DNA of 63,884 bases from a virus (lineage: Duplodnaviria > Caudoviricetes). Both the position numbers and the translations under genes were made by a program. The stretch is from IMG/VR virus record IMGVR_UViG_3300025132_000031, positions 1 through 63,884 of that record, one strand, 5' to 3'. The notes below the pieces were generated by a model. The model did not search any database. It was not told the DNA's origin and was given only the letters and a program-made list of their open reading frames with translations. Position 1 is the first letter of the stretch, and every line of letters begins with the position of its first letter. Positions 2,381 through 50,813 of the stretch are shown one piece after another.

Positions 2381-2848
2381 TTATGATCCCAATCCTAGGC
2401 TTTTTCCTAGAACATTGTATATGGCAGTTGTGTCAAGTTGGCCCCCTGAAGAGGAGGGCATTTCTACAGTAGAAATTTGAGGAGTCAAACCGCCTGAAGT
2501 CGTCGCACCTTTTAAGTTATCCCCAGCCATTCTGAGGTTGGGTGAACTACCCCATATATTTGCAAGGTTGCTCATAATATTCTGTTGCTTCGTAAACTTC
2601 TGCCTTTTCTCTAATTCCCACTGCAACTGTTCGTTAATCATCTCTCTTTCTACTAAGTCACCCTTTACCTCTAGCATGTCTCCCGCTAGATCCATTCCCT
2701 TAGTAAAATTTAACTGATTAATCCGTTGAGCATCTTCTATCCCCGAAGTAGATTTAATGGCACTAAAACTTTCAATTGGGGGGTCACCAGGGAAGTTGTT
2801 GAGATAGGCTTGAGCAACTCCTAAGTTACTAGGTAAAGAAACTGCCAT
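2381..2848 (-). CDS. Hypothetical, putative virion/internal protein (DLAGD and RMAGD motifs)
   Basis: Tightly packed with neighbours; shared motif. Confidence 0.7.
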   Translation of the reverse strand: MAVSLPSNLGVAQAYLNNFPGDPPIESFSAIKSTSGIEDAQRINQLNFTKGMDLAGDMLEVKGDLVEREMINEQLQWELEKRQKFTKQQNIMSNLANIWGSSPNLRMAGDNLKGATTSGGLTPQISTVEMPSSSGGQLDTTAIYNVLGKSLGLGS

Positions 2849-2850
2849 AT

Positions 2851-3660
2851 TTAGTAACCTCCACCAAGAATAGTATTCACGGTTGAAGCTCCGGCAGATT
2901 GAGCATTAGCAATAGCATTGGCAACCATAGCGTCCTGTTGAGCCTGTCTGTTACGAGCTGACTGCTGATTTAGTAAATCTGTCATTGGAGCTAGTCTTGC
3001 TGAGTTGATTTCGTTTTGAATAGCCTGTCTCTTAAGCTGTTGATTCAAGTCAACATTAGGATCGATAATACTGTAAGCACCTCTCGCTAAACCTTTACCT
3101 GCTCCGCTTCCGAGCATTCCACCTATACCTGCTCCTACAACCCATCCAACGCCTGGAAGGAATGGCAATAAGGTTTGACCTACCACACCTCCTAACATTG
3201 TTCCACCTGCAGTACCTCCTAGGCTTCCGACTGCCTCTGCTACGTTGACTGCTGTTGGATCTGTAGGATCTCTTAATTCTTGTGCAGCATCCAAAATAGC
3301 CAGCAATGAACCTATACCTGCTACACCTCTTGCACGAGGGACTGTTCCTTTAATTCCAGCCTTTACATAACCCCAAGGACCTTTAATATTCTTAATTGCT
3401 TGTCTTCCTGCTTCAGTCTTTAATGCGTCTCCATACATTATTCCCATCCCTGTGTTATCTATGTTCTTACCCATAGCTCTTAACCAATCAGGAGCTCCAG
3501 CCTTTCTGAAGTTACTTGGATTAGGAACAGTTTTTTCTTGTACGTTTTGAAATAATGTATAAGGAACTAATGTTCCTGCTGTCTGGGCTGCTGCTGTTTT
3601 CCAAGAGCTGTTAGGTCGGATACCACCATCGTCTACCCAGGTATTAGAATATTGAGACAT
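2851..3660 (-). CDS. Gly/Ala-rich protein with glycine-zipper-like segment; putative ejection/internal protein
   Basis: GSLGGTAGGTMLGGVVG...GAGIGGMLGSGAG; Gln-rich helical C-terminus. Confidence 0.6.
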   Translation of the reverse strand: MSQYSNTWVDDGGIRPNSSWKTAAAQTAGTLVPYTLFQNVQEKTVPNPSNFRKAGAPDWLRAMGKNIDNTGMGIMYGDALKTEAGRQAIKNIKGPWGYVKAGIKGTVPRARGVAGIGSLLAILDAAQELRDPTDPTAVNVAEAVGSLGGTAGGTMLGGVVGQTLLPFLPGVGWVVGAGIGGMLGSGAGKGLARGAYSIIDPNVDLNQQLKRQAIQNEINSARLAPMTDLLNQQSARNRQAQQDAMVANAIANAQSAGASTVNTILGGGY

Positions 3661-3697
3661 TCTTTAAAGACACAATAAGCCTACTGTTTAGATTCTA

Positions 3698-4507
3698 TCA
3701 GTCTTCCATGTAAGGAAGTTTCTCAGGTTCTACCCACGGTACTAAATGAGCAACATTTTCTGCTGTCATATTTAATTTCTTACATTTAAAGAACTTCGGA
3801 GCACCCTCTCTGTTGTCTACACATTCAATAGAGGCATGGACATAGTCAGCATTATGTCTCTTCTCTGGACGTTCTCTCCATTTACCGTCTACCTTTTCGT
3901 AGCGTTTTTCATCAAACGGCACATCATAGTCTTCAATGTATTGCCATATGTCGTCATGAGTCCATTCCCTGAGAGGAAAGACCAAGGACGCAACACCCTC
4001 AGGCATTCCTCGTACTTCAACTCGAGTACCCGCATCCCCTCCTAATATCGGATCTGAATCACAATTCTTATGTCCTATCCATAACGCATCCACAAAGGGA
4101 ACACGTAATGATTCTTGTTTTGGACGCTTGAGAATATCTAAAGCAGTTGTGAAAGGTAAATCATCCGCTGGTTCCACAATCCCTGTCGGACAGGTCAATA
4201 TCGTGTTATTAAGTTTATACCAATGTTGCACTTCAAACTCGTCATCTACACGCTGCATAGCAGACTTAAAAGGATGCCATGTATAAACCAATAATTCCCA
4301 ATCTCTAATAATTCGATCTTGAAATTCATATTTAAACGGTTGCCACGGTTCTCTGAAAAATATGACAGGAACTTTAATACCATGTCTTCTTAAGAGATGT
4401 AACAAAACCATACTGTCTTTTCCACCTGACCAACAAACCATGGTCGATAAAAAATGATTCACAGAGGAATCAATAATCTGATCTGTACGTTCTAACTTAT
4501 CTCTCAC
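3698..4507 (-). CDS. PAPS-reductase-family (PP-loop) protein
   Basis: WSGGKDSMVLLHL; FPLREWTHDDIWQYI. Confidence 0.85.
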   Translation of the reverse strand: MRDKLERTDQIIDSSVNHFLSTMVCWSGGKDSMVLLHLLRRHGIKVPVIFFREPWQPFKYEFQDRIIRDWELLVYTWHPFKSAMQRVDDEFEVQHWYKLNNTILTCPTGIVEPADDLPFTTALDILKRPKQESLRVPFVDALWIGHKNCDSDPILGGDAGTRVEVRGMPEGVASLVFPLREWTHDDIWQYIEDYDVPFDEKRYEKVDGKWRERPEKRHNADYVHASIECVDNREGAPKFFKCKKLNMTAENVAHLVPWVEPEKLPYMED

Positions 4508-4547
4508 TAAAAATATTCAACTCTACTTAAGGTAGCGAAGAATAATC

Positions 4548-4952
4548 CTAAATCAATACCCCAGCGACAGTACCTATAACAGTTCCTCCAAGTTGCATCC
4601 AAGCGGCATCTTGTGCTCCTTGAGCCTGGCGTCTTGCAAAACGTTCGCTAGCCAATCTATTGCGATAAGCCATCTCTTCATTTGCTTTATTGCCTAACAT
4701 ATCTCCCGCCATTCTCAATTCATTCGTAAATTGATCATCCAAAACCTTAGCCTGATGTAAAGCTTCGTCTGCACCAAAACTAATCCCTGACAAGCCAGGT
4801 TCCATGCTTGGGGTGAATTGTTGATTTTGATGCCTTGCAGCATTAGGCATTACGCCTTTAAAAGCAGTAGGATCTGGTCCCGAGAATCCACCGGAAGAGT
4901 GCTCTTTCCTGAGCACCTTCATTACTTCTACTGGATCTAAGTCAAAAGCCAT
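4548..4952 (-). CDS. Hypothetical, putative virion protein (LRMAGD; hydrophobic C-terminus)
   Basis: ORF in operon-like block. Confidence 0.7.
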   Translation of the reverse strand: MAFDLDPVEVMKVLRKEHSSGGFSGPDPTAFKGVMPNAARHQNQQFTPSMEPGLSGISFGADEALHQAKVLDDQFTNELRMAGDMLGNKANEEMAYRNRLASERFARRQAQGAQDAAWMQLGGTVIGTVAGVLI

Positions 4953-4961
4953 AGCTATATG

Positions 4962-5471
4962 TTACCAAGTGTGAGGTGAATTATATCCGAAGATATTCGT
5001 TGAAGAAGTGCCTGGTATGTCCATATCAGTAGTCCATTCTATTGTTCTACCTCCGTAGGTACTATCAGTACCGAATGGATCGATATTATAACCTGAAGGA
5101 TTAACCATCGCATTTGGATCATCAAAATCCAATCCCCAAGCATCTGTACCACTCGATCCTCTCCCTGAGAATTGATTGCCTCCGCTATTCATCAAGGAAT
5201 TCGCACCCCAACTAATAAAAGGACTTGCAATTGAACCTAACATGCTTGTTAATCCTTGTGTCCGTGCCGCTTTTCCCGCTTGAGCTCCAGCATATTCAGT
5301 CGCTTTTGCTTGATGTTCGTTCTGAATTTCCTTACTCTTTATATCTCCTACCAATGAAGCAAGAGCATCACCTGCCATCCTATTCCTTGAATCAACATTA
5401 CGTGCACTTGTAATACCTAAGGCACTACCAATAGCTCCTAGTCCAGTAATCTTGGGGATTGGAATACCCAT
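4962..5471 (-). CDS. Hypothetical, putative virion protein (RMAGD)
   Basis: ORF in operon-like block. Confidence 0.7.
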   Translation of the reverse strand: MGIPIPKITGLGAIGSALGITSARNVDSRNRMAGDALASLVGDIKSKEIQNEHQAKATEYAGAQAGKAARTQGLTSMLGSIASPFISWGANSLMNSGGNQFSGRGSSGTDAWGLDFDDPNAMVNPSGYNIDPFGTDSTYGGRTIEWTTDMDIPGTSSTNIFGYNSPHTW

Positions 5472-5473
5472 TC

Positions 5474-6889
5474 TTATACGTCCTCAGTTCCCATAGTTCT
5501 TCTTATCGATTCTAGTCCCTGTCCTGTAATGCCTCCTACTGCTGCTGCACCTCCACCATATTTAAGTATTTCCCAAAGCATTTCCTTTTGACCTTCACGA
5601 GTTGCAGTTTCTTTTACCATTTTCTCTTGTTGCATCTCTTTTCTTAAGTCTTCGATGCGTGTAGGCTCTGCTATTCGACGAGCCATCTCTGGAGTATCTG
5701 GCTTAGCGTACTTAAGATCATCTTGTTCTTTTTTCATGGCCTTAATTTTCTCGTTTGCTAGGTTTTGAGCTTCTAATGGTCCCTTTGCACGAGCAATATT
5801 ACGTGCTCCACGCCTAAATCCGTAGCGTGCACCCGCCGCTGCAGCCAATGTAGGTAAAATTGCGGTTGCAGCAGGCATAGATTTACCCATGAAGTTTATT
5901 TCAGGGCCATGAATACCTGTAGCAGTCCCTTTTAGGGCTCCCAAGATGTTAAATGTGCCATCATCGAACGGGTTTAAGTCTGTTTTCCTGTCAAATTGGT
6001 AAGCTTTGTACCTTCTGTACTCTGATTCAGAGACATCTGGCCGTTCTTTGCTGAATTCGTCGTAAGGAAGTAAACGTCCTGTCCGTCCTAGGAAGTAACG
6101 ACTCACTAATTCGCCAATAGGAGAATCGGTTCTACGTGGATCGCTCTCACTAGGAAGAACTGCTTTGTATCCTGCGGGTCTTCCAATATTTCCAATACCA
6201 GTTGACATAGCAATAATGGCTGGAACAGTAGCCGCTAAACGAATATTCCTGTTTTTAAGTAAAGATTCGTGTGTTGGGTTAACCTGCTTCAGTCTTGCCG
6301 CTAATTCTTGATCTCCGATTGATGCATTAGTTCCAGGGTTCTCCATTCCAGCCTGTTCTCTATGTAGTCCTTCCAGCAAAGTTAACTGTGTTAATGCTTG
6401 TGGAGCATTTAAAAACCACCAAATATTACGGAGTCCGTCACTCATTACATCAGCAGCCAAGGCACCACCTATTTGCTGTGCTCTAGCTCCTGCACTAGGA
6501 GCCTGTCCTTTTGGGTAAGGTCTTGTATAAGTTTGAGCTACCTCAGGACGTTGCTCCAAGAATTGATCTCTAGCTTTTCTCTCGTCAGGATGGAATCCCC
6601 CTAGAGGAATTTGGCCTACGGTATCTCGAATTTTTTCGCTAATTCCTCTATTTCCTTCTCTGTTAATTGGAAGATAATCCAACTGCCTAATAGCTGAATT
6701 AAATAAATCACTTTCAGCTAAATTATGAGGTAAATAAAATCTTGCTGTATCTACAGCACTAGAACTCCCTGCAATATCTTCTAAAGGAGTATTTTGATAT
6801 ACCTTTCCTAGGTTTTTTAAATCGTCGGATCGCCTCGCCTCTTGATAGTTACGAGGACTCGTGAAGAAGGCGTCTTCAAAGATACTCAT
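5474..6889 (-). CDS. Hypothetical 471-aa protein, putative internal virion protein
   Basis: Long ORF, 2-nt gaps to neighbours, Ala/Gly-rich helices. Confidence 0.75.
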   Translation of the reverse strand: MSIFEDAFFTSPRNYQEARRSDDLKNLGKVYQNTPLEDIAGSSSAVDTARFYLPHNLAESDLFNSAIRQLDYLPINREGNRGISEKIRDTVGQIPLGGFHPDERKARDQFLEQRPEVAQTYTRPYPKGQAPSAGARAQQIGGALAADVMSDGLRNIWWFLNAPQALTQLTLLEGLHREQAGMENPGTNASIGDQELAARLKQVNPTHESLLKNRNIRLAATVPAIIAMSTGIGNIGRPAGYKAVLPSESDPRRTDSPIGELVSRYFLGRTGRLLPYDEFSKERPDVSESEYRRYKAYQFDRKTDLNPFDDGTFNILGALKGTATGIHGPEINFMGKSMPAATAILPTLAAAAGARYGFRRGARNIARAKGPLEAQNLANEKIKAMKKEQDDLKYAKPDTPEMARRIAEPTRIEDLRKEMQQEKMVKETATREGQKEMLWEILKYGGGAAAVGGITGQGLESIRRTMGTEDV

Positions 6890-6891
6890 AA

Positions 6892-7368
6892 TTAAACGAG
6901 AGCTCCTCCTGCAGATAATGCTCCACTGAGCAATGCCTGCTGAAGTTCACGTTGTATTAGTTCTTCCTGCGTAGCGGGAGCTGCTGCTGCCCCTGGAGTA
7001 CGTTGAGCTATATCTTCGTAAATCTTCTGTGAAATTGGGAATTTATAAATACCTGTCGCAGGTAACGCACTACCTACAAAGTCTGAAGCAGTGACCAAAT
7101 CCTGATATCTTTGACCTCTTAAACCCATAGCTCTACCTGCGCCTATACCAGCTCCAATTCCAAGAAGAGAAGCGGCTAGACCTACTCCTGCATCTTCTCC
7201 AAAAGCAAGACCCCTTTCACCCCACGTAGCATTTTCAGGAAGTCTCATCGCTGCTGCTCCACCAAATAGGACATCAGGCCCGAAACGGAAAAGAGCCGAC
7301 CTTGCATCAGGAGCTACTTCCTTCCTGATCATATTTAAGATCTGTCCAGCTTTTCTAAGGTTTCTCAT
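6892..7368 (-). CDS. Hypothetical Gly/Ala-rich protein (LRKAGQ at N-terminus)
   Basis: TAATG coupling to upstream gene. Confidence 0.7.
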   Translation of the reverse strand: MRNLRKAGQILNMIRKEVAPDARSALFRFGPDVLFGGAAAMRLPENATWGERGLAFGEDAGVGLAASLLGIGAGIGAGRAMGLRGQRYQDLVTASDFVGSALPATGIYKFPISQKIYEDIAQRTPGAAAAPATQEELIQRELQQALLSGALSAGGALV

Positions 7369-7733
7369 TACGCTACTGGCCCCTCCATAGGCATAGGTGC
7401 TGGTGGCATTTCTGTTACGGGATTAAACGACTCAACATTAATGGAATTGCTCATGAACATATCCATAAATCTTTGAAGTTTTTCCTGAGCAATAGGACTT
7501 GCTTCAGGTCCTGCAACAGTATTAGCTGCTGCTCCAAATTCACCAGTAATACCTACTCGTGATTCCGGATCCCAAATATCACCCGCAAAGCGATCACCAG
7601 GTTTTAACTGACCAACAGAAGACCTAGTGGTAATATCAACAGGACGCTCTCCTAGGTTACGCTGATTCTCATTAGCTTGATGTAATGTGCGACGTACACC
7701 GGATGGATCTTGGCTAATTCCTCGGAAAGACAC
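7368..7733 (-). CDS. Hypothetical protein (RFAGD)
   Basis: GTG start, coupled to the next gene. Confidence 0.65.
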   Translation of the reverse strand: MSFRGISQDPSGVRRTLHQANENQRNLGERPVDITTRSSVGQLKPGDRFAGDIWDPESRVGITGEFGAAANTVAGPEASPIAQEKLQRFMDMFMSNSINVESFNPVTEMPPAPMPMEGPVA

Positions 7734-7765
7734 ACTAAGACTGCACTATATATTCTTTATATTAA

Positions 7766-8005
7766 CTACTTTGAAATAACGTTCTTATAAAAATTAGCCT
7801 TCTTAACCATCTTGTCGGAATGCTCCTCTTTATTCTTTAAAACTTCATTAGCAAAAGCCTTGCGACCTTCTGGGGAATCCTCATGTCCTGCCTTAGTTGC
7901 AGCCGCAGTGAATGTACCTCCAGTACCACCTTTACTCATAGGCTTTTTCATCTTCTTGAAAGCTTGAGCTAAAGCCTTAGCCTTTTTGCGTTTTTCTTCA
8001 CTCAT
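7766..8005 (-). CDS. Small basic protein (GTFTAAATKAG...FANEVLKN...KKANF)
   Basis: Lys-rich 79 aa; resembles a motif recurring in phage virion-associated proteins (recognised from memory). Confidence 0.65.
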   Translation of the reverse strand: MSEEKRKKAKALAQAFKKMKKPMSKGGTGGTFTAAATKAGHEDSPEGRKAFANEVLKNKEEHSDKMVKKANFYKNVISK

Positions 8006-8213
8006 CTCTTAATTCTACTCCTGTAAGAGGCTGGCCTTTGAGTACATATTTGTACATCAGCCATGTATGCGTATTAAAGATCAATGTTGAAAAAATTACA
8101 ACAGACACAGGATCAAATCCATTTTCCTTCGTCAAGGCACCAAGCAACGCATACCCCTGTTCTGTATGTTTTCTCATATCTTCAGGGGTAATTGTAAACG
8201 TATGCTTTTTCAT
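7998..8213 (-). CDS. Hypothetical protein
   Basis: Overlap-coupled with both neighbours. Confidence 0.6.
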   Translation of the reverse strand: MKKHTFTITPEDMRKHTEQGYALLGALTKENGFDPVSVVIFSTLIFNTHTWLMYKYVLKGQPLTGVELRDE

Positions 8214-10804
8214 TAGCGTCGTCTTCTAAGAAGTCGTTGCATAATGTCGTTCATAGCCTTGTCATACTCAGGAGAACCTACGTCCTTATCTAGAGTGCCT
8301 AAACCTTCTAGTAAAGTATTTCTTGCTCCTACGGCTTCTGTCTCTGCTGCAACTCTTTGATAATTTGCAACCCTTTGAGCTTCCTCTGCTCGCTTGTAAT
8401 CTGTTGGTGTTAGTGGTTTCTCAGGGGCGTTCACCTGCGAAGCATTTGCAGTATTTATAGAAGAGGTCTGAGGTATGTTAGAAGACTCCTGATCAATCTG
8501 ATATGCCCTGCGTAATCGATTTGCTTCTGCGTTTCCTTCTTCTAAAGGAACCCCTAGGCCACGTCGGTAACCTTTCTCTACCCAGTATTTCTCGGCATTA
8601 GAGCCTGCAGGGATAATTGGATTTTCTTTTGTATCTAGAACTCGACTTGTATTAACTCCTCGAGACAAATCCCAACCACTCTCTAGCTCAGCTTTACGTG
8701 TTTTATTAGGATCTTTAATCGTCATCTGATTTGCCATGGCCTCGGAGAAATCAGTCGAAGCATCTTCTGATGAACTTCTTCTACGAGTCTTCCTTTCTCT
8801 CTCTTCTTCTTGAACTTCCGTCCTTCCTCCTTCTTCAATTGCGCTCACAGCTAAAGGTGCTTCTCTCAAAGAAGTAGCAACTTCTGTTGGATCGATTTGA
8901 TATTTTTTACCAATAGCCATTATCAGTTCACGACCTAAATCGACAGGCATCGCAGCACCCATCTTCACCTTGTAATCACTTAGGTTTTCATATAATTCAC
9001 GAGCAGCTTTATTCTTGTTAGTTAATGATGTCTCCCCGATAATATCTAACTCCCGACTCTTAGCGGATTTAGCTCTGATAGCACTTTCTAAATCTTGAAG
9101 TGCAGCACTCCCAGGCTTGAATCGTTTTAATATTTCTTGAGGATCAACGTCAACCACTCCTTTAGCAGTTCTTAATTTGCCTGTCATCACTGCATCTGCA
9201 ATATTATCCATAGCAGCACGAGACCCATCACTAGGTTCTTCCATAAAGGATCCGCCAGCTAACTGATGATAGAAGTCAATAGTATTCATGTCCGTAGCTT
9301 TCTCTCCGATGAAACGTGCGTATGCATCATCAGGTTGATTTAGTAGCTGAGTGATTCCTGTGTCATAAGTTCTATAAGAATCCGCAATACGATATCCAGA
9401 TCCGTCAGGTAGTAAGTGCAATAAAGTTTTTGTTCCATCAGGCCGTGTCATTTCTCCACGTTCTGACAATGTATTTCTTTCGAGGGCTGGAGATATTTCC
9501 GCACTAGCACCACGGTCATCTAAGCTCTTGAAAGAATATCCTTGCTGTTTGATCCGATTAATATCCGCTATAGAAATAGTTTGTTTCTTCTTCTTAATAG
9601 GACTCTTCATCGTCGTTGGTGCGAGCCCGAGACGGTGGGCCTGGCTGCGAAGATACTCCACATCACGAGACATGGGATTACCTATACGATATCTTCCTTG
9701 ATACTCCGCACCATTCCAGTTGAATACTGGCAATACTTCCTGCGTTGTTTTTGTTCCTACTCCCTGAACTTTTACAGTCTTCGGCCTAATAACTATTCCT
9801 ATAAGGTTTCGTGCTTCTTTGGACTTAGGGTCGTATCCTTTTTGTTGACTATACGCAAGTAGTTCTTCTGTATCTAGAAGCCTTAAATCAGGACTATCAA
9901 AATCAATTAACTCGGTTTTTGCTTCACGTAATATTTGAGATGCAACCTTACCTAGTCGCTCTCCTTGCTCCATATCTCCTTCTCCAAAAGCGTCAATTCT
10001 TATGGTTGGATCAATGCCTGCGTTTTTGGGCATCTCCTTTTCAACAACGTTCATATCCTTCGGAATCCAACCTTTCTTTCTGCTACGAGTTTGAACGAGA
10101 TTCAATGGATTGATATCACCATCTTTTTTCTCTGCAGGGTCTCCTTGATAGTTGATATAGTTAGCTTTACTCTCATCTTCTAAACTGCCAGCAGTTGGTG
10201 AAATTCCATACCGCCTATTATCTACCAAAGTTTCGTAAATAGGGTCGACCTCTCCGTCTCTGCTTAACTGACTCCTCTTTATCTCATTTTGTCTTGTATT
10301 ACCTATATCACTGGCTGTTTTTAAGTCAGTTCTTCTTTCTACTTCAGGGTTTCTAATCGCTACTTCTAGTGGAACTTCTTCTCCAGTAACCTTGTCAATC
10401 TCAGTTTTTTGATAATAATTGTAAGGAATACGACCTTTAGTCATATTCGTATCTATCAAGTTAAGTTTCTCTATTCCTAAAGGCCGACCTTCTATTAAAC
10501 CCTTTAATCCACCTTGATTTCTAGTTCTTGGACGTAGATCTTTTGGATCTCCTTGTGGAACTTCTGTTGCTGAAGAATATTCATCCGTAGTAACAATATC
10601 AGGTGGTATTCTCCTTACATTGTCATTTGCTTTGATAAGTTTTTTAACTTCACCCTGTAAATACTCTTCTTCCGCAGCGAGTTTGGCGGCTTCTTCGCTT
10701 CTGGATAGTATTGGTTCTTGTCTGATTATTGGTCTACGTCTACCTCTACGAGGATCATTCTCGTCTCCTCTTTGAGGAAATTGTCCAACACCGCCAAGCG
10801 CCAT
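8213..10804 (-). CDS. Large (863 aa) charged protein of unknown function
   Basis: Long ORF; no recognisable motif. Confidence 0.85.
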   Translation of the reverse strand: MALGGVGQFPQRGDENDPRRGRRRPIIRQEPILSRSEEAAKLAAEEEYLQGEVKKLIKANDNVRRIPPDIVTTDEYSSATEVPQGDPKDLRPRTRNQGGLKGLIEGRPLGIEKLNLIDTNMTKGRIPYNYYQKTEIDKVTGEEVPLEVAIRNPEVERRTDLKTASDIGNTRQNEIKRSQLSRDGEVDPIYETLVDNRRYGISPTAGSLEDESKANYINYQGDPAEKKDGDINPLNLVQTRSRKKGWIPKDMNVVEKEMPKNAGIDPTIRIDAFGEGDMEQGERLGKVASQILREAKTELIDFDSPDLRLLDTEELLAYSQQKGYDPKSKEARNLIGIVIRPKTVKVQGVGTKTTQEVLPVFNWNGAEYQGRYRIGNPMSRDVEYLRSQAHRLGLAPTTMKSPIKKKKQTISIADINRIKQQGYSFKSLDDRGASAEISPALERNTLSERGEMTRPDGTKTLLHLLPDGSGYRIADSYRTYDTGITQLLNQPDDAYARFIGEKATDMNTIDFYHQLAGGSFMEEPSDGSRAAMDNIADAVMTGKLRTAKGVVDVDPQEILKRFKPGSAALQDLESAIRAKSAKSRELDIIGETSLTNKNKAARELYENLSDYKVKMGAAMPVDLGRELIMAIGKKYQIDPTEVATSLREAPLAVSAIEEGGRTEVQEEERERKTRRRSSSEDASTDFSEAMANQMTIKDPNKTRKAELESGWDLSRGVNTSRVLDTKENPIIPAGSNAEKYWVEKGYRRGLGVPLEEGNAEANRLRRAYQIDQESSNIPQTSSINTANASQVNAPEKPLTPTDYKRAEEAQRVANYQRVAAETEAVGARNTLLEGLGTLDKDVGSPEYDKAMNDIMQRLLRRRR

Positions 10805-10843
10805 CTATTTATACGAGATATATCTGTATTACAAGTCTACTGA

Positions 10844-11533
10844 TTAAGCTTGATCTCTATCTTGCATTAATGCCGAAGCAATAGGCAATCCGGCTACGGA
10901 TCCAATTAAACCTGCAGCTCCCATTCGGCGCATGCGATTCTTCAGAATTTTATCTGCTGCAGATTCTTGTTTTGGCATTTTATCTCCTGAATCCATGGCT
11001 ACAGTCACTTCTGGTTCAGTTCGTTTAGCTTGTCTTTGTGCTTCTTCTGCAACAACCCTGTCCATTTCTGGGGTTGCAGGTTTACCTGCTTGAGCTGCAG
11101 AACCTGCGACTTCTGAAACTACTCTTATATAGTCTTGTTCTAAATTGACCTTTTCTTTTGCAACCCTTAGCACTTCAGGTATATCACCCGCTGCTTCAGC
11201 GGCGGCGGCCTTTCTGTCTAAGTCTTGCATCTGTCTCTTGTATTCATTATCTATATTGATCGCTTCTACCCCTGTTTGAGCAACATTACCCATGTTGGAG
11301 AAATTTTCACGTAAGACTGGATCTAGCGCTGCTGCTATTCCTGCTCCACCTACTCCAGTTGCTAGAGGAATGTTGGCAATTAAATTATTAAGCATTAATT
11401 CTCCAAAATTATCCGCATCCATGTAACCTTGGACTTGAGAAATTGCAGGAGCAGCAGTACTTCCCAGAAGCATTGCTAACAAGGCTGGATCTTGTCCCGC
11501 CATTCGTAAAGAGTTAAATACTGGGGCTGCCAA
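10844..11533 (-). CDS. Hypothetical Ala-rich protein (LRMAGQ near N-terminus)
   Basis: TTG start; upstream TAGAAT-N7-GTAG. Confidence 0.7.
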   Translation of the reverse strand: MAAPVFNSLRMAGQDPALLAMLLGSTAAPAISQVQGYMDADNFGELMLNNLIANIPLATGVGGAGIAAALDPVLRENFSNMGNVAQTGVEAINIDNEYKRQMQDLDRKAAAAEAAGDIPEVLRVAKEKVNLEQDYIRVVSEVAGSAAQAGKPATPEMDRVVAEEAQRQAKRTEPEVTVAMDSGDKMPKQESAADKILKNRMRRMGAAGLIGSVAGLPIASALMQDRDQA

Positions 11534-11570
11534 GGCTTTTCAAGAACGTCTACTTTTTGTATTCTATATT

Positions 11571-12224
11571 TTATCCATAACCAATGTTTCCCACTAAACA
11601 GCAACGTCCTTCTGCTTCTTGGTCTTTCGGTTCAACCCGATGGAAGCGTGGTCCAAGAAATACAGTTAAAGATCCTTCTTTTGCTTCAACATATTCCGAA
11701 GAACCATCGATATTATCAATAATTAAAGGTGCAGAGCCCTTAGGAGTATTGACATTGTAAGAAAAACTCAATATATAAGGGAAATGACAATGAGTAACAA
11801 CGCCGGTGTGTTTGGCGTAGGTAATTCCCCAACATTCTGCAACGTAAAACTTTGTTGTATCAAAACCTAGCGAACCTATTAAGTCCCCTCTTCTCCAATA
11901 TTTTTGATTTTCGAACCTACCGCAAGCGAAATTAACGCAAACTTCTAACATTTTGTCGTTTAAGAAGTGCATAAACTTTTGCATCGCAGGATTATCTTGC
12001 TCTATCTGGTGCAAATCCCAGGGTGTGCGTTTACTGTTCCCCTTGACAGGTCTTTCAATTAAATTTTTGATAATATTTCGCTCTAATTCGTCTTTAATTT
12101 CAGAATGATTTGGATTATCGCACTGCAAATACAAACATTCCGTTTTGTGCTGGAAGCTAAGGTCATCGACTGGCACCCCTTGCTCCATGATGCGTTGCGA
12201 TTTTACTTCGTTGGAGGCGGCCAT
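11571..12224 (-). CDS. Putative 2OG-Fe(II) oxygenase (TIGR02466-like)
   Basis: ECWG...HCH...SFSYNV...EGSLTVF...FHRV...RCCLVGN. Confidence 0.7.
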   Translation of the reverse strand: MAASNEVKSQRIMEQGVPVDDLSFQHKTECLYLQCDNPNHSEIKDELERNIIKNLIERPVKGNSKRTPWDLHQIEQDNPAMQKFMHFLNDKMLEVCVNFACGRFENQKYWRRGDLIGSLGFDTTKFYVAECWGITYAKHTGVVTHCHFPYILSFSYNVNTPKGSAPLIIDNIDGSSEYVEAKEGSLTVFLGPRFHRVEPKDQEAEGRCCLVGNIGYG

Positions 12225-15432: not shown

Positions 15433-15669
15433 CTACGCACCGTAAGCAGGCTCAGGCTGATACGATCCCGACAAGGCATACTCAGGCTGACTATATTCCG
15501 GTGCCATCACATTACCAAACGTACTCTCATCGTAAAACTGGTTCACCAGTGAACGAGGAATCATTTTATCCCGACGAAAACCACGACGGAGATTCTCTAT
15601 CTTGTCATTCTTTAGACCTTCTCTTATATCGAAGTCAAAGACATCACCAGCTAATCTCAGTCCTTCCAT
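15433..15669 (-). CDS. Hypothetical protein (LRLAGD at N-terminus)
   Basis: Minus-strand island; shares the late-protein motif. Confidence 0.65.
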   Translation of the reverse strand: MEGLRLAGDVFDFDIREGLKNDKIENLRRGFRRDKMIPRSLVNQFYDESTFGNVMAPEYSQPEYALSGSYQPEPAYGA

Positions 15670-15808
15670 TCCTTAACCTCTCTTTGTTCACACATCTCAA
15701 CAGTCTCTTGATACCACACATACTTAGATCCACGAGTATCCCCATGAGTCTCCATAGACAACAACACCTTCCTAGCTATATCACATTCAGTAGGAGTCGG
15801 TTGTTTAA

Positions 15809-16294
15809 TCATGAGGTTAATACATCAGATCTTCCAGCAGCTTGCTGCTCTCCTTCTTGCAAATAATCCATGATTGCAACTAAACCAGCAGCACCTGCGG
15901 TCATCGAACCACCATAAAATGAAGATCTTTGCACGTTTCCCCAGAAACCTTCGGAAGCCATGCCTCTAGAAACCTGCTCTCCAACTCCTGCTTGGCGAGC
16001 ACCTACAGCCTCATCTATTAAGTCTTCGATGTTAATACCTGCATCTCTCGCTCCTTTAACTCCAGTAGGAGAAGACCAATCCCCAGGTGCACCACCTTTA
16101 GGGGCATAGTCTTGACCGACACTAGCAGCTACCTTAGCGTCGAAACTATCCCATCCTTGAGCATCATCTATCTTGACTCGACGATTCAATTCATCTCTCA
16201 AAGCTTGATCACCAGCTTCTCTGAAACGATCAGCGTGACCAGTCCATACCTTGTGATGAGGCTGAACTATATTCTCATCAATCCAACGTCTCAT
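15809..16294 (-). CDS. Hypothetical Gly/Ala-rich protein (REAGD)
   Basis: 161-aa ORF in minus-strand island. Confidence 0.7.
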   Translation of the reverse strand: MRRWIDENIVQPHHKVWTGHADRFREAGDQALRDELNRRVKIDDAQGWDSFDAKVAASVGQDYAPKGGAPGDWSSPTGVKGARDAGINIEDLIDEAVGARQAGVGEQVSRGMASEGFWGNVQRSSFYGGSMTAGAAGLVAIMDYLQEGEQQAAGRSDVLTS

Positions 16295-44308: not shown

Positions 44309-44313
44309 GATCA

Positions 44314-46251: not shown

Positions 46252-46258
46252 ATGACAT

Positions 46259-46789: not shown

Positions 46790-46825
46790 GGGAAAAATTT
46801 AGACGTCTCTACCTATAGTAGGTAA

Positions 46826-46927: not shown

Positions 46928-46931
46928 AGAT

Positions 46932-47129: not shown

Positions 47130-47729
47130 TCAAATTATTCCAAGATATTTTTTAACAGATGCCAGCACAACTGGATCTGCTAGGTTCCTTATTTCTATAT
47201 CTGGACGCACTTCAGCTATTCTTAACGCTTGACCAGTTCCGCCACTATCAGGGTTTTGTCTCCTATTTTGTATATTCATTGGATCATATCGAGGATCCCA
47301 TCCTGTTGCAGCACGAGGAGTGTATGCAACAACCAACTTCGAAGGAGTTTGCAAGTCAGAACCTAAGACCTGCATTGCGTTTCGTGCCATTAGATCATAA
47401 GTAAACGGATTCATACTAGCTGCGTATGCATGATACATAGGAACCATGCGACGAGCATCTGCGGCAGCACGTAATGTTTGGTAGTTAATGAAATGAGGTT
47501 GGCTACCTGCTATCTGATTATTAAACTTGCGACCAGGTAAATAAATTTCAGCATTAGCCCGAGGATTGCGGAGACCTGAGAGAAATGCAGAATCTGATCC
47601 TTTAGCACCTCCAGACCTGAGTATCCATCCTTCGCTTTCTAATTTATTAGCCAGCAGGCTCATGATACGTAAAGTATCGGACGGCACTCTTTCCCGAGAA
47701 CCTATGCCAGCGTAATAACGTCTATTCAT
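47130..47729 (-). CDS. DprA/SLOG-like Rossmann-fold protein
   Basis: YAGIGSR, LRSGGAKGSDSAF, ARN..QVLG, GGTGQALRIA. Confidence 0.8.
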   Translation of the reverse strand: MNRRYYAGIGSRERVPSDTLRIMSLLANKLESEGWILRSGGAKGSDSAFLSGLRNPRANAEIYLPGRKFNNQIAGSQPHFINYQTLRAAADARRMVPMYHAYAASMNPFTYDLMARNAMQVLGSDLQTPSKLVVAYTPRAATGWDPRYDPMNIQNRRQNPDSGGTGQALRIAEVRPDIEIRNLADPVVLASVKKYLGII

Positions 47730-47938
47730 AAATACGCTTTCGATATATTCGTAGCAAACCCTATTAATGTCACTCCGGCTGCCAATACTGCTGCAGCCCC
47801 TATAACCCACTTCTCTACAACTTTGAGACGTTCACGTAACTCTTCTTGCTTCTCTTCCAATCTTTCAATCTTTAAAGCTTGTACTGTTAGACGAGTCTCC
47901 TGAGACGCATCTACATGTGAAGGATTGTCGCAAGTCAT
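47726..47938 (-). CDS. Coiled coil plus C-terminal TM (holin/XhlA-like architecture)
   Basis: LRERLKVVEKWVIGAAAV. Confidence 0.6.
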   Translation of the reverse strand: MTCDNPSHVDASQETRLTVQALKIERLEEKQEELRERLKVVEKWVIGAAAVLAAGVTLIGFATNISKAYL

Positions 47939-48384
47939 GATTTCTTGGAAGAGTCAACAACGTCTGCTCCTAATATTTTAATTGGAGTCTCTACACGAAT
48001 TGTTTGGAATCCGCCCCCTGTGTTCATTAATGCCAACATCTCTTTTTTGCTTAAAGGCTTATCGTCTCCACTAGCGTCATATGTTCCATCACCTTTCTTC
48101 TTGGCACTCTTATCCAGGCCAAAGCTAGCAAGCGACGAAGCCAGGAGAGAAGCCGGAAAAGTTATATCCTGTTTTTCCCCTGACGTCAACCCAGGAATTT
48201 CTGGCAGATAATTTAGGGTCACTAATGCCCCGGACCAGGCAACCACGACCAGTCTGACTAAAACTGAGATGTATTCAAACTGTTCTTCCTTATCATCTAA
48301 CTTCTCTTTCAACGTCTGAAAGACACCCTTCTTCTTTTCCTCCTCGTTCTTTTGTGGAATTTCTTTATCTGCCGTAGTAGCCAT
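47935..48384 (-). CDS. Conserved cyanophage two-TM protein (WSG..LTLNY-like; ITFPAS...SFGL)
   Basis: Motif recognition. Confidence 0.7.
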   Translation of the reverse strand: MATTADKEIPQKNEEEKKKGVFQTLKEKLDDKEEQFEYISVLVRLVVVAWSGALVTLNYLPEIPGLTSGEKQDITFPASLLASSLASFGLDKSAKKKGDGTYDASGDDKPLSKKEMLALMNTGGGFQTIRVETPIKILGADVVDSSKKS

Positions 48385-48418
48385 TTCATTGGATTAATCT
48401 ACATTAATAGTAGACGTT

Positions 48419-48592
48419 TTAAGTTGGGTAATAAGCTGGTACCAAAGTTCCTCGGTCATCATCGTCGTCATCATCATCCTTAAATGGTAATTCACCAAGC
48501 ATAAGAATGCTCACAATGAATACGGAAATAACAGGTAGGAAAGGAAATAAGAAAGCTAATTGAATCGTTGACGGGTCAGCTAGTTCGTTCAT
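48419..48592 (-). CDS. Small TM protein with poly-Asp tail (57 aa)
   Basis: Manual translation MNELADPSTIQLAFLFPFLP...KDDDDDDDDRGTLVPAYYPT*. Confidence 0.6.
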   Translation of the reverse strand: MNELADPSTIQLAFLFPFLPVISVFIVSILMLGELPFKDDDDDDDDRGTLVPAYYPT

Positions 48593-48764
48593 GAGCATTA
48601 GATAGTTTGTTGTAAGCCTTTTGAGCCTTTTTAATAATTTTACGAGCCTCTTCTCGAGACATACACTTTTCTGCTTTTCTAGCCAGTCGTATTAATTTAT
48701 GATGCTGTTTATTCGTCGTAGTCGTAGATTTCTGAAAGTCCATAAAGTCCGGCAAGTCCTCCAA
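48576..48764 (-). CDS. Small basic protein (KAEKCMSREEARKIIKKA)
   Basis: Resembles a small picocyanobacterial protein. Confidence 0.5.
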   Translation of the reverse strand: MEDLPDFMDFQKSTTTTNKQHHKLIRLARKAEKCMSREEARKIIKKAQKAYNKLSNAHERTS

Positions 48765-49989
48765 GTAAGCTAGCTGCTGTATGACCTGGTCCCCATCTCA
48801 TCGCATTACGACGATTCCTTGAACCGAAGTTCTTAGGAGTATCTACAGGTGGATCAATTCCAGGTTCAGTAGAAGCAGTAGACTGACCTGTTGGTCCTGC
48901 AGCAACATTAGATTGAGGAGCTGTTCCCGCTAGATACTTTTGGTATTCAGGAATATCTATATTACCACTTGGTGTCAAATTATAAGGAGCAGCTTCACGA
49001 GCTGGTCTTACTACATTATTAACTCCAAAATTTCCTGTTAAGTAAGGATCTGCGGATTCAGCAGCTTGAGCAGTTAAAGCTCTCCTAAGATCTGTCATCT
49101 CAGTATCTACTGCTCTTGCAGGATCTTGTCCTACTTTCATGCGAGCTAGCTTCTTCGAATCAAGATCACTTAGACCTAATTTCCTCCCTTCCAAATAAGC
49201 AGCATTCCAATCTTCATCACGTAATGCCGTATTGATGGATCCACCTGTGCCATATCTAGAAGCAGGATATCCTGATGGTGTTCTGTCTGAAACCATCCTT
49301 GAATCTCCTCCAACCAAGTACTGAGCCATCTCAGGAGAATTTCTGAAAGCTGCTAAAGCTTGTTCATCCTTTTGAGTTAATGCTCCAGCAGCCAGTAACT
49401 TGCTTGCATCATCATATTGGTAAACATCTCGCATATCTCTATCAACAAATACACCACGAGGGATGTTTGGTCCGATCTCAACCGATTTTCCTCGATACTC
49501 CTTAGGAAAGTCGCCAGGAGAACCACCCTCTGGCACTAGTAAATCATCACTAAAATATTCACGAAGAGCATTAGTCGTGGAACCATCTAGGTCTAATTCT
49601 CCTTGCGTTACCAGTCCTGCCATGCTCTTAGCTAAATTAGCCTTAGCAATATCAGCCTGATATAGCAGATTCTGTACTCCTTCTCCTGCTCCAGAAATAA
49701 GCCTTCCAGATCCTTCTCTTAATTTGTCGAGCCTAGCCCTAGCAGCAGCAACTGCTATGGAATGTCTATCCATCCTCTCAGGTATGGATCGAACTAACGC
49801 TTCAACTCTAGGTGCACTCCAATTGTATGTAGTACCTACATCTCTAACTGCCTTTCTGATAACCATGGCAGCACCTCTTTCGCCTGTCTTGGCTAGGTTC
49901 CACAAGGAATCTACAGTTCCACCTTTAGATTCAACTGTATCTCTCAGGGCGTTAAAAAACTGATTGAAATCTTCTGATCCTTGGCTCAT
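48709..49989 (-). CDS. Hypothetical 426-aa protein
   Basis: Long ORF. Confidence 0.8.
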   Translation of the reverse strand: MSQGSEDFNQFFNALRDTVESKGGTVDSLWNLAKTGERGAAMVIRKAVRDVGTTYNWSAPRVEALVRSIPERMDRHSIAVAAARARLDKLREGSGRLISGAGEGVQNLLYQADIAKANLAKSMAGLVTQGELDLDGSTTNALREYFSDDLLVPEGGSPGDFPKEYRGKSVEIGPNIPRGVFVDRDMRDVYQYDDASKLLAAGALTQKDEQALAAFRNSPEMAQYLVGGDSRMVSDRTPSGYPASRYGTGGSINTALRDEDWNAAYLEGRKLGLSDLDSKKLARMKVGQDPARAVDTEMTDLRRALTAQAAESADPYLTGNFGVNNVVRPAREAAPYNLTPSGNIDIPEYQKYLAGTAPQSNVAAGPTGQSTASTEPGIDPPVDTPKNFGSRNRRNAMRWGPGHTAASLLGGLAGLYGLSEIYDYDE

Positions 49990-49991
49990 GA

Positions 49992-50321
49992 TTAAAACGT
50001 TGGCAAAGATGGACCGCCTAAGATTCGCTTAATTGTCTCTACCTCGTTCATATTGTCATTAGCTCTGATCTTGTTATAAATTTTGGCAGCTTTATTAGCT
50101 CCTTTATGTCCCCCACCAATATCGAAACTAGGGTTAGCCGCCATAATCCAATCCTTACCTGGAGGCATAGGATTAGGGTATCCAGGCCAAGGTGGTCCTC
50201 CTGGTACTACTGGAGGAGAATCAGGTCTCTTTTCTGCAAACAATCCAGCATCGCCATAGATAGGCTTTGGAGGAAAACTCTGTAGAAATCCAATAATGTT
50301 TCTATCGCCTGCGAATAACAT
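49992..50321 (-). CDS. Pro-rich hypothetical protein (LFAGD)
   Basis: ORF in operon. Confidence 0.65.
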   Translation of the reverse strand: MLFAGDRNIIGFLQSFPPKPIYGDAGLFAEKRPDSPPVVPGGPPWPGYPNPMPPGKDWIMAANPSFDIGGGHKGANKAAKIYNKIRANDNMNEVETIKRILGGPSLPTF

Positions 50322-50327
50322 GATTAA

Positions 50328-50813
50328 TTAGAAAGTATTAGAGAAGCCTGCTTGCCCCCCAAAGCCGCCTCCATGACGACCATCCTGTTTGTAGTCTACC
50401 CCTAGATTCCAGTTAAACCCTTTAGGAGCCTGTCTTCCTATGCCTACTTGAGCATTGACCGATCCTGGGTTGTCGTAATTAAATGTGCCAAATTGATCTT
50501 GGCCCTGACCGCTGAACGGGAAGTTAACGTCTAATCCTCCGGAGGCGTTAATATTTTTTTGCTTATTTATAGGTACTTGCACTGAACCTTTAGCCCCATA
50601 TATTCCCTCTTGATCTACTTTTAGTGTCCCCGCTGCAAAGGCACCGAAATCAGGAGTGGAGCCTTGAATAGGCATATTAGTTCCTTGGTAGTTATCAAAG
50701 GTATTACCAAGAGCATTGATAGCCATGTTATTAGCTTTTTGATTCTCTAGCAATCCCAACACTCTCGGGTCACCAGCCATTCTACCTGCCTGATTAGCTC
50801 CTGAATTCGACAC
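50328..50813 (-). CDS. Hypothetical (RMAGD) with beta-strand C-terminus ending in Phe
   Basis: Alternating beta pattern; ends GFSNTF. Confidence 0.65.
   Translation of the reverse strand: MSNSGANQAGRMAGDPRVLGLLENQKANNMAINALGNTFDNYQGTNMPIQGSTPDFGAFAAGTLKVDQEGIYGAKGSVQVPINKQKNINASGGLDVNFPFSGQGQDQFGTFNYDNPGSVNAQVGIGRQAPKGFNWNLGVDYKQDGRHGGGFGGQAGFSNTF

What the first reader, a model, noticed from the sequence alone, without database searches (positions are those of the whole stretch)
2519..50783. Shared R-x-A-G-[D/Q] peptide tag across about ten late proteins: candidate capsid-targeting or maturation-cleavage signal
Seen: RMAGD (2519-2533), RMAGD (4701-4715), RMAGD (5367-5381), RKAGQ (7342-7356), RFAGD (7578-7592), RMAGQ (11492-11506), RLAGD (15643-15657), REAGD (16208-16222), LFAGD (50304-50318) and RMAGD (50769-50783), plus DLAGD and RKAGA variants. 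All are in minus-strand unknown proteins, and six lie within ~30 aa of the N-terminus. Ala and Gly codons vary (gct/gcg/gca; ggg/gga/ggt/ggc), so conservation is at the protein level rather than a DNA repeat. Established: T4 internal proteins carry a capsid-targeting sequence removed by gp21, and poxvirus I7 cleaves core proteins at AG|X. Inference: this is a sorting or AG|D cleavage signal for a set of packaged/ejected proteins, including genes lying far from the main cluster.
Basis: partly seen in the sequence, partly recalled or inferred. Interest (0 to 1): 0.85.

Follow-up and report, generated by a model that had tools for sequence, protein, structure and literature searches.

The report
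Shared R-M/F-A-G motif in cyanophage proteins
Several small, unrelated late proteins of an uncultured marine cyanophage carry the same short peptide (Arg, a bulky hydrophobic residue, Ala, Gly, then usually Asp); it is real and conserved, but nothing shows that it is a cleavage site.

Summary
All 10 peptides are at the stated coordinates on the minus strand. RMAG[DQ] occurs 5 times in the late ORF set against 0.01 in shuffles, and never in plus-strand ORFs. Synonymous codons vary within and between orthologues, so selection acts on the protein.

The ten sites are not independent. The 155-, 134- and 169-aa carriers are paralogues. One start codon is ambiguous. REAGD is not conserved and LFAGD has no orthologue to test.

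Four or five non-homologous families still share R-Phi-A-G. This order is enriched 3- to 7-fold over the other 23 orders on the late strand of five related genomes.

The window is about 76% of an ~85-kb S-EIV1-like cyanophage. The carriers lie in a helical cluster with a lysin-like gene, upstream of the terminase.

No protease was found. In the wider clade the Gly is often replaced.

Best reading (0.4): a shared recognition or docking motif of internal-virion or ejection-type proteins. Cleavage is 0.2. Paralogy plus independent structural constraint is 0.3.

The parts
2381..2848 (-). 155-aa protein of paralogue superfamily A. It has RMAGD at 2519-2533 (aa 106-110) and DLAGD at 2678-2692 (aa 53-57). 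DLAGD is the site homologous to the motif in the other two paralogues.
   Evidence: BLASTP against 4962-5471 gives E 4.7e-07; hhalign probability 98.9% and 97.7%; orthologues keep NLRMAGD but have MDMATD at the first site
2851..3660 (-). 269-aa lysin-like protein of the cluster, with an RKAGA variant at 3493-3507.
   Evidence: phrog_1047 tail-associated lysin E 4.3e-11 and phrog_10341 endolysin; no Pfam or PDB match; RKAGA is kept in G002
4548..4952 (-). 134-aa protein of superfamily A, with RMAGD at 4701-4715 (aa 80-84) and a hydrophobic Gly-rich C-terminus.
   Evidence: The N-terminal 79 aa diverge from G001/G002 while the motif and the C-terminal 50 aa are nearly identical. The AF2 model has a helix over residues 58-132, mean pLDDT 59.
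4962..5471 (-). 169-aa protein of superfamily A, with RMAGD at 5367-5381 (aa 31-35).
   Evidence: Orthologues have NRMAGS, so the core is kept and the next residue changes.
5474..6889 (-). 471-aa conserved all-alpha core protein of the cluster. It carries no strict motif. It has an orthologue in S-EIV1.
   Evidence: A1 alignment of 26 sequences; AF2 all-helical, mean pLDDT 70; no PDB fold match at E<=0.001; S-EIV1 hit E 7e-14
6892..7368 (-). 158-aa protein (family B), with the N-terminal motif MRNLRKAGQ at 7342-7356. Its start is coupled to the upstream stop (TAATG).
   Evidence: R-Phi lies at the N-terminus in 20 of 23 orthologues, and the full R-Phi-A-G in 5 of 23. The S-EIV1 gene at the same position starts (V)RLAGR.
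7368..7733 (-). 121-aa protein (family C), with RFAGD at 7578-7592 (aa 48-52).
   Evidence: R-F-A-G in 15 of 21 aligned orthologues; F49 and G51 are nearly invariant; Arg, Ala and Gly codons vary
8213..10804 (-). 863-aa protein of unknown family, the largest gene of the cluster. It has no motif.
   Evidence: no PHROG, Pfam or PDB match; 83% identical in G001
10844..11533 (-). 229-aa protein (family D), with the N-terminal motif RMAGQ at 11492-11506, followed by hydrophobic Gly/Ala-rich segments.
   Evidence: Orthologues read RMAGT (G001), RMAGR (G007), RYAAA (G003) and NRLAGD (G004). The G003 and G004 forms have no Met, so translation must start upstream.
15433..15669 (-). 78-aa ORF (family F) starting MEGLRLAGD (15643-15657). 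It lies on the minus strand inside the early region.
   Evidence: 4 of 5 family rows have R-[LF]-A-G-D at the N-terminus. Differences from G001 fall 2/2/8 by codon position in this frame, against 2/6/2 in the overlapping plus-strand ORF.
15809..16294 (-). 161-aa ORF with REAGD at 16208-16222. This is a weak member.
   Evidence: The closest orthologue has QQAGD, so the Arg is not kept.
49992..50321 (-). 109-aa ORF starting MLFAGD (50304-50318). This is a weak member: it has no Arg.
   Evidence: no homologue in the loci or the four relatives
50328..50813 (-). 161-aa Gly-rich protein (family E), with RMAGD at 50769-50783. The start codon is ambiguous.
   Evidence: A 67%-identical orthologue is called from MAGDPRV.... 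It is not homologous to family D (hhalign probability 0.3%).

Best explanation
The motif is a short linear recognition element with consensus [L/M/I]-R-[M/F]-A-G-[D/E/S/Q]-x-[L/F/I]. It is carried by several small, mostly helical, Gly/Ala-rich late proteins of an S-EIV1-like marine cyanophage.

Most carriers sit in one cluster upstream of the terminase gene. That cluster also holds an 863-aa protein, a 471-aa all-alpha protein and a lysin-like protein, and it resembles the internal-virion or ejection-protein module of podoviruses.

I infer that one common partner reads the motif during assembly or sorting of these proteins into the particle or the ejection complex. On this reading the motif docks; it need not be cut.

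Shown: the motif exists, it is selected at the protein level, it is confined to late-strand genes, it recurs in non-homologous families, and it is often N-terminal.

For: 1. Enrichment. RMAG[DQ] is 5 against 0.01 and R.AG[DQ] is 7 against 0.46 in late ORFs, and 0 in plus-strand ORFs. RMAG and RMAGD are the top k-mers.

2. Composition-matched control. Among the 24 orders of {R, Phi, A, G}, R-Phi-A-G is first or tied first on the late strand of all five genomes. Counts against the mean of the other orders are 9 vs 1.35, 5 vs 1.7, 9 vs 3.13, 10 vs 2.83 and 4 vs 1.39. It is not enriched on the other strand: 0, 1, 0, 1, 0. Collapsed by family over six genomes, it is in 9 N-terminal families against 1-5 for other orders, and in 22 internal families against 5-18.

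3. Families B, C, D and F are not homologous to each other or to superfamily A (hhalign probability 4.5% or less), yet all carry the motif.

4. Conservation with synonymous change. RFAG is in 15 of 21 family C orthologues. RMAG is kept while the next residue changes D->S and Q->T. Arg uses six codons across orthologues. The family B N-terminal R-Phi reaches as far as S-EIV1.

5. Positional turnover. The G007 family C orthologue lacks the motif at the aligned site but has DRMAGE near its C-terminus. The 155-aa family keeps a second copy where the first has decayed.

6. Context. The cluster holds a lysin-like gene and an all-alpha 471-aa protein, and it lies just upstream of TerL and portal in relatives. 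Podoviral internal virion proteins are described as extensively helical, hard to detect by sequence and accompanied by a muralytic domain (passages of PMC4819975).
Against: - No partner is identified.
- Three carriers are paralogues, and across 99 distinct superfamily members only 51 have Phi-A-G-[DESNQT]. At the homologous site Gly is often R, T, S, Q or K.
- In family B the full R-Phi-A-G is in only 5 of 23 orthologues. Phi-A-G-[DESNQT] is not enriched there: 5 of 27, against a mean of 7.2 for other orders.
- After collapsing paralogues and dropping the ambiguous family E start, strict RMAG is shared by only two families. A 4-mer seen in three unrelated proteins is not rare among 160,000 possible 4-mers (my estimate; the early set also shows 3-protein 4-mers).
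- Families were partly split, which inflates counts for a conserved motif.
- Virion membership of any carrier is untested.
Confidence: 0.4

Rival explanations
1. The motif is a proteolytic processing site, cut after Ala-Gly (R-Phi-A-G | D/E/S/Q) by an unrecognised phage protease or a host protease. Cutting would remove short N-terminal propeptides (families B, D, F) and split the internal carriers (superfamily A, family C).
For: - The N-terminal sites lie 5-15 residues from the start.
- The logo has small residues where P2 and P1 would be, and alternating hydrophobic/basic/hydrophobic residues before them, as expected for an extended substrate (67 contexts).
- The residue after Gly varies freely among close orthologues while R-M-A-G is kept.
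- In the 134-aa family, the part before the motif diverges and the part after it is almost invariant.
- Precedents are recalled: T4 gp21 cuts at L/I-x-E, and poxvirus I7 cuts at A-G|X. Search listings only were seen for the T4 and SPN3US papers.
Against: - There was no match to Peptidase_S78, CLP_protease, Peptidase_C48, Peptidase_C39 or Peptidase_C57 in 0 of 5 records each. The Peptidase_S77 search rang in no control genome, so it is uninformative.
- No peptidase family came from PHROG or Pfam scans of 40 window proteins and 20 proteins of relatives (30 protein scans), other than the lysin-like hits and a sub-threshold M60-like_N.
- The head module of G003 has the portal, an unknown 224-aa protein and a 382-aa capsid protein of ordinary length, with nothing protease-like between them.
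- Gly is replaced by R, T, S, Q, K, A or M at the aligned site in many relatives.
- A low-confidence model puts the 134-aa site in mid-helix.
- The podovirus phiRIO-1, which lacks a protease, shows no processing of its virion proteins (passage of PMC4819975).
Confidence: 0.2
2. There is no common reader. The apparent shared tag is the sum of paralogy (three proteins), ordinary within-family conservation of unrelated segments, and local structural preference in Ala/Gly-rich helical proteins. An example of such a preference would be a small-residue packing or turn element followed by a helix-capping Asp or Ser.
For: - Superfamily A paralogy is shown. Its ancestral site reads x-Phi-A-x-x-A-L, with Gly not required.
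- In family C, RFAG is one of several conserved islands rather than an isolated one.
- The residues after Gly (D 28, E 10, S 8, Q 6 of 67) partly match helix N-cap preferences (recalled).
- The AF2 model is helical through the motif.
- Cross-family significance is modest once multiple testing and the ambiguous family E start are allowed for.
Against: - A generic structural preference should also appear in early-strand proteins, but it does not: 0-1 per genome, at or below the permuted orders.
- The same order of four residue classes is top or tied top of 24 in five genomes.
- It recurs at the extreme N-terminus of non-homologous families, where no preceding helix can exist.
- Positional turnover within families fits a linear signal better than a fixed structural element.
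Confidence: 0.3
3. The pattern is chance, or an artefact of wrong ORF or start calls.
For: - The pattern was defined after seeing the data.
- Two members are weak (REAGD, LFAGD).
- One start is ambiguous.
- The 78-aa ORF overlaps a longer plus-strand ORF.
Against: - 0 of 300 shuffles reach the observed counts.
- Orthologues keep the motif through synonymous changes.
- The family B start is fixed by a TAATG overlap.
- The 78-aa ORF shows third-position-biased change.
Confidence: 0.05

Closest known systems
T4 capsid-targeting sequences and gp21 propeptide sites (L/I-x-E) of internal proteins (recalled; search listings only: PMC3012670, PMC9026906)
   Same: A short shared peptide, often N-terminal, on several small proteins thought to travel inside the particle.
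   Different: No prohead protease is detectable. The motif chemistry differs (Ala-Gly, not Glu). Several sites are internal. Packaging and cleavage are untested.
Jumbo-phage propeptide cleavage (phiKZ gp175, SPN3US gp245; A/S/G-x-E motif) (recalled; search listings and abstract starts only: PMC5694885, PMC10052503)
   Same: Many head and ejection proteins share one short motif.
   Different: Those phages encode an essential prohead protease and the cuts have been mapped by mass spectrometry. Here there is neither a protease nor such data.
Poxvirus I7 core-protein processing at A-G|X (recalled from memory; no paper read)
   Same: An Ala-Gly core with a hydrophobic residue before it and a variable residue after it.
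   Different: No clan CE peptidase was found (PF03290 and PF02902, 0 of 5 records each). The virus realm is unrelated, and Gly is not kept across the clade.
Internal virion (ejection) protein modules of podoviruses: T7 gp13-16, P22 gp7/20/16, phiRIO-1 (passages of PMC4819975)
   Same: A cluster of small and large, strongly helical proteins with a muralytic domain, undetectable by ordinary sequence search, lying next to packaging genes.
   Different: There is no sequence or profile link to any of them. To my knowledge (recalled) no shared pentapeptide has been described for those modules. An enzyme-like PP-loop gene sits inside this cluster.
Host Prp protease trimming short N-terminal leaders of Staphylococcus phage 80alpha capsid and scaffold proteins (recalled from memory; no paper read)
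   Same: It shows that short N-terminal leaders on phage structural proteins can be cut by a host enzyme, without a phage protease.
   Different: The host phylum and motif differ. No evidence was obtained here for a matching cyanobacterial protease.

Membership tests
Prohead-protease propeptide or capsid-targeting signal (T4 or jumbo-phage type) | The phage encodes a prohead maturation protease | tested here: not met
   PF04586 and PF00574 gave 0 of 5 complete or near-complete relatives, and the controls rang. PF03420 gave 0 of 5, but its control rang nowhere, so that search is uninformative. No protease came from PHROG or Pfam scans. A very divergent protease cannot be excluded.
Prohead-protease propeptide or capsid-targeting signal (T4 or jumbo-phage type) | The signal lies at the N-terminus of the carried proteins | tested here: inconclusive
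   Of 12 sites, 5 lie within the first 15 residues and 7 lie at residues 25-110. One N-terminal site depends on a doubtful start.
Prohead-protease propeptide or capsid-targeting signal (T4 or jumbo-phage type) | Carriers are present in virions and are cut at the motif | not testable with these tools
   This needs virion proteomics or N-terminomics. The S-EIV1 paper was not held and supplements are closed.
Poxvirus-type A-G|X processing | A clan CE cysteine protease (I7/Ulp1-like) is present | tested here: not met
   PF03290 gave 0 of 5 (its control rang only below the cut-off). PF02902 gave 0 of 5.
Poxvirus-type A-G|X processing | An Ala-Gly dipeptide is invariant at the sites | tested here: not met
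   Gly is replaced at the aligned site in many orthologues of superfamily A and family B. It is kept in 15 of 21 family C orthologues.
Double-glycine leader peptides cut by C39 peptidase | A C39 peptidase domain is encoded with the substrates | tested here: not met
   PF03412 gave 0 of 5 phage records. The control shows that Synechococcus elongatus has the family, so a host enzyme is not excluded.
Podoviral internal virion or ejection protein module | A cluster of small and large, extensively alpha-helical proteins | tested here: met
   The 471-aa protein is all helices, mean pLDDT 70. The 134-aa protein has a helix over residues 58-132, but mean pLDDT is only 59. The 863-aa protein was not modelled.
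Podoviral internal virion or ejection protein module | A muralytic domain lies within the module | tested here: inconclusive
   PHROG lysin families match at E 4.3e-11 and 1.5e-4. There is no Pfam, PDB or Atlas support for a named catalytic domain.
Podoviral internal virion or ejection protein module | Homology to T7 gp14/15/16 or P22 gp7/20/16 | tested here: not met
   There was no PHROG, Pfam or PDB-sequence match for the carriers or for the 471- and 863-aa proteins, and no fold match for the 471-aa model.

The most novel reading that the evidence does not exclude
S-EIV1-like cyanophages use an R-Phi-A-G|D code to sort, and then trim, a set of ejection proteins without a recognisable prohead protease. 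The protease would be a host enzyme or a new phage-encoded fold. This would be a poxvirus-like Ala-Gly processing logic in a tailed phage. The signal would turn over in position within proteins and would be lost in a coordinated way in some lineages, such as G003.
Probability: 0.15. Interest if true: 0.75.

Novelty: new variant of a known kind. Interest (0 to 1): 0.45.

Why it matters
The S-EIV1-like lineage is widespread in marine and fresh waters. Its structural genes are almost entirely unannotated (passages of 10.1101/325100 and PMC8790148).

A shared peptide tag would give a handle for three things:
- listing the proteins that travel with the DNA;
- finding the partner that sorts or cuts them;
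- recognising the same class of proteins in metagenomes, where homology searches fail.

If the motif is only paralogy plus structural convergence, it is still a useful marker of one small-protein superfamily, but of local interest only.

Tried and rejected
1. DNA-level repeat or internal start codon. Rejected. Arg, Ala and Gly codons vary. The hydrophobic position is F, L, K or Y in many orthologues. The family D motif in G003 and G004 has no Met.

2. Rejected as unsupported. R-Phi-A-G counts in the cluster are the same in loci with the gene (15 loci, mean 3.0) and without it (20 loci, mean 2.85).

3. Family E as a diverged copy of family D, because the two occupy equivalent positions in G003 and G007. 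hhalign probability is 0.3%.

4. The 471-aa protein as a hidden protease. The model is all-alpha with no PDB fold match at E<=0.001. Sequence and profile searches of the PDB found nothing significant.

5. Complex prediction of the 471-aa protein with residues 1-45 of the 158-aa protein. The answer was 'no answer' (score 0.00, mark 0.32). It counts neither for nor against binding.

6. Naming the proteins. The Atlas search of the lysin-like protein found only unnamed viral clusters. PDB sequence searches of the lysin-like protein, the 863-aa protein and the A4 profile found nothing significant.

7. Orthologues of family E in IMG/VR. None were found. The big protein collection gave 3 proteins.

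8. Literature. Searching 'RMAGD' anywhere hit 82 papers; the 10 listed were unrelated. 'S-EIV1' plus 'cryo-EM' gave 2 unrelated papers. No paper describing this motif was found. The S-EIV1 genome paper is not held.

9. The first shuffle script timed out with no output. It was rerun with fewer shuffles.

Full report
WHAT THE WINDOW IS. The window is the whole held record. CheckV rates it 76% complete. It has no terminal repeat, and an ORF runs off its start. Minus-strand genes fill 1-12,224 and 42,554-63,884; plus-strand genes fill the middle.

There is no nucleotide or protein match in the phage collection for the 12-kb cluster or for its 863-aa protein. Two close partial relatives were found (G001 and G002).

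In G001 and G002 the gene order continues past the window's first gene. It runs into a large terminase (phrog_38, E 5.5e-70) and a 743-aa virion protein that I take to be the portal (phrog_20475, E 1e-185). The window therefore lacks the head and packaging genes.

The portal finds 123 relatives in IMG/VR, of which 80 were kept. Several are 80-85 kb long with direct terminal repeats. The only match in the phage genome collection is Synechococcus phage S-EIV1, at 45% identity over 90% of the protein. Relative G003 carries psbA and a 382-aa capsid protein (phrog_1357).

This is the uncultured marine lineage whose nearest isolate is S-EIV1. Its structural genes are described as mostly unrecognisable (passages of 10.1101/325100 and PMC8790148).

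THE OBSERVATION. Their positions in the ORFs are given.

- Shuffling residues within proteins never reaches the observed counts. RMAG[DQ] is 5 against 0.01 and R.AG[DQ] is 7 against 0.46 in 50 late ORFs, with 0 of 300 shuffles reaching either. There is none in 48 plus-strand ORFs.
- A blind k-mer count puts RMAG and RMAGD first in the late proteome.
- Codons differ between sites and between orthologues; Arg alone uses six codons. The constraint therefore acts on the peptide.

HOW MANY INDEPENDENT CARRIERS. There are fewer than ten.

- The 155-, 134- and 169-aa proteins are paralogues. BLASTP gives E 4.7e-07 and hhalign gives 98-99%. The profiles came from overlapping jackhmmer sets, so the hhalign figures are somewhat circular.
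- The site that is homologous among the three is DLAGD in the 155-aa protein. Its RMAGD is an extra copy.
- The 158-aa (B), 121-aa (C), 229-aa (D) and 78-aa (F) families show no homology to each other or to the paralogues.
- The 161-aa protein at 50,328-50,813 (E) is not related to D. A 67%-identical orthologue is called from the Met of the motif, so its Arg may not be translated.
- REAGD is QQAGD in the nearest relative.
- LFAGD has no Arg and no orthologue.
- The 78-aa ORF is probably real. Changes against G001 fall 2/2/8 by codon position in its frame, and it has N-terminal R-[LF]-A-G-D relatives in G003 and G007.
- The start of B is fixed by a TAATG overlap with the upstream gene.

CONSERVATION ACROSS THE CLADE. 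I called ORFs on the portal-co-oriented strand of the 80 loci and in four complete relatives, then built family alignments.

- Family C keeps R-F-A-G in 15 of 21 orthologues, and F49 and G51 are nearly invariant.
- Family B keeps an N-terminal R-Phi in 20 of 23 orthologues, but the full R-Phi-A-G in only 5 of 23. The S-EIV1 gene at the same position begins (V)RLAGR.
- Family D reads RMAGQ, RMAGT, RMAGR, RYAAA and NRLAGD.
- In the paralogue superfamily the aligned site is x-Phi-A-x-x-A-L, with Gly often replaced. Only 51 of 99 distinct members have Phi-A-G-[DESNQT] anywhere. That is still the top of 24 orders, whose mean is 22.5 and whose next best is 37.
- Close orthologues keep R-M-A-G while the next residue changes: D to S, and Q to T.
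- The pooled logo from 67 distinct contexts is [L/M/I]-R-[M/F]-A-G-[D/E/S/Q]-x-[L/F/I].

IS THE SHARING BEYOND CHANCE. As a composition-matched control I counted all 24 orders of R, Phi, A and G.

- On the late strand, R-Phi-A-G is first or tied first in all five genomes, at 3 to 7 times the mean of the other orders.
- On the other strand it is at or below that mean.
- Collapsed by family over six genomes, it is first both within the first 16 residues (9 families against 1-5) and elsewhere (22 families against 5-18).
- Some orthologue groups were split in that clustering. This favours a conserved motif, so I read the excess as real but about 3-fold, not more.
- The five genomes share orthologues and are not independent samples.
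- Strict RMAG alone, once paralogues are merged and family E is set aside, is shared by only two families. That would not survive multiple testing on its own.

WHAT THE CARRIERS ARE. None matches a PHROG or Pfam family at useful significance. They are small and rich in Gly and Ala, and several end in a hydrophobic Gly-rich segment (sequences).

Their neighbours are:
- an 863-aa protein of unknown family;
- a 471-aa protein that models as all helices, with no PDB fold match;
- a lysin-like protein;
- a PP-loop enzyme.

The cluster lies directly upstream of the terminase gene in relatives. This resembles the internal-virion or ejection-protein modules of podoviruses. Those are described as strongly helical, linked to a muralytic domain and hard to find by sequence (passages of PMC4819975). 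Membership by homology is not met.

CLEAVAGE OR NOT. Six protease families were sought in the window and in complete relatives, without a hit. One of the six searches is uninformative because its control also failed.

PHROG and Pfam scans of 40 window proteins and 20 proteins of relatives (30 protein scans) gave no peptidase. In G003, nothing protease-like lies between the portal and the capsid gene. The replaced Gly in many relatives argues against an obligatory cut after Gly. A helical, low-confidence model of the 134-aa protein points the same way.

Some features still fit a substrate or a linear signal:
- the N-terminal bias;
- small residues at the would-be P2 and P1 positions;
- a free next residue;
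- positional turnover, meaning that the G007 family C member has the motif moved to its C-terminus and the 155-aa family keeps a second copy.

A host protease cannot be excluded.

VERDICT. The motif is real, acts at the protein level, is restricted to late genes and is shared by four or five unrelated families. It is concentrated in a putative ejection-protein cluster of a poorly known cyanophage lineage.

My probabilities are:
- 0.4 for a common recognition or docking signal;
- 0.3 for no common reader (paralogy plus structural convergence);
- 0.2 for a true cleavage site;
- 0.05 for chance.

The function rests on inference; no step of it was shown. The motif was not found in print in the searches.

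Noticed in passing
window 3-1877 (-): A protein of 625+ aa has DUF4214 repeats and a Pretoxin-HINT/intein-like C-terminal domain, and it runs off the window's start. Its counterparts in relatives differ in length (510, 664 and 772 aa) and share only parts of it.
   Followed up: partly
window 3698-4507 (-): A PAPS-reductase-like PP-loop enzyme sits inside the putative ejection-protein cluster. It is 98% identical to the G002 copy, while its neighbours are 53-89% identical. It is present in 15 of 35 relatives' clusters. Its presence does not track motif counts.
   Followed up: partly
window 11571-12224, 50842-51603, 51572-52249, 53427-54176 (-): At least four 2OG-Fe(II) oxygenase paralogues lie among the late genes. 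Another lies after the portal in G001.
   Followed up: no
window 50328-50813 (-): This Gly-rich 161-aa protein ends in ...GFSNTF. That is reminiscent of the C-terminal Phe signature of outer-membrane beta-barrels (a recalled feature). Only 3 relatives were found among 5.8 billion proteins.
   Followed up: partly
window 15433-15866: The 78-aa minus-strand ORF overlaps a longer 121-aa plus-strand ORF. Codon-position bias of the differences from G001 favours the short minus-strand ORF (2/2/8 against 2/6/2).
   Followed up: yes
L089 (G003) 10089-11174 (-); G007 80193-80537: Relatives carry psbA (photosystem II D1) between the portal and the capsid gene, inside the head module.
   Followed up: no
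G004 and G006 (L096-L105): Two complete relatives with the same gene order have about 60% G+C, against 41-42% for the window, G003 and G007. This suggests hosts of very different composition within one phage lineage.
   Followed up: no
G003 77995-79623 (-) and G007 72726-73361 (+): The unit [L/M]-R-V-A-G-Q-E-[N/K]-R occurs twice in a 542-aa protein and once in a 211-aa protein, just upstream of the terminase. This region is missing from the window. It is another family with the motif.
   Followed up: no
G003 71844-72518 (-): The 224-aa protein directly after the portal, at the place where a scaffold gene might sit, begins MRFAGADLSKLFGKLRRAGT. That is two motif-like units at its N-terminus. 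The G007 counterpart may start MRYAS.
   Followed up: partly
window 59192-60508 (-): A tail-fibre protein carries five CBM_5_12 (chitin-binding type) repeats.
   Followed up: no
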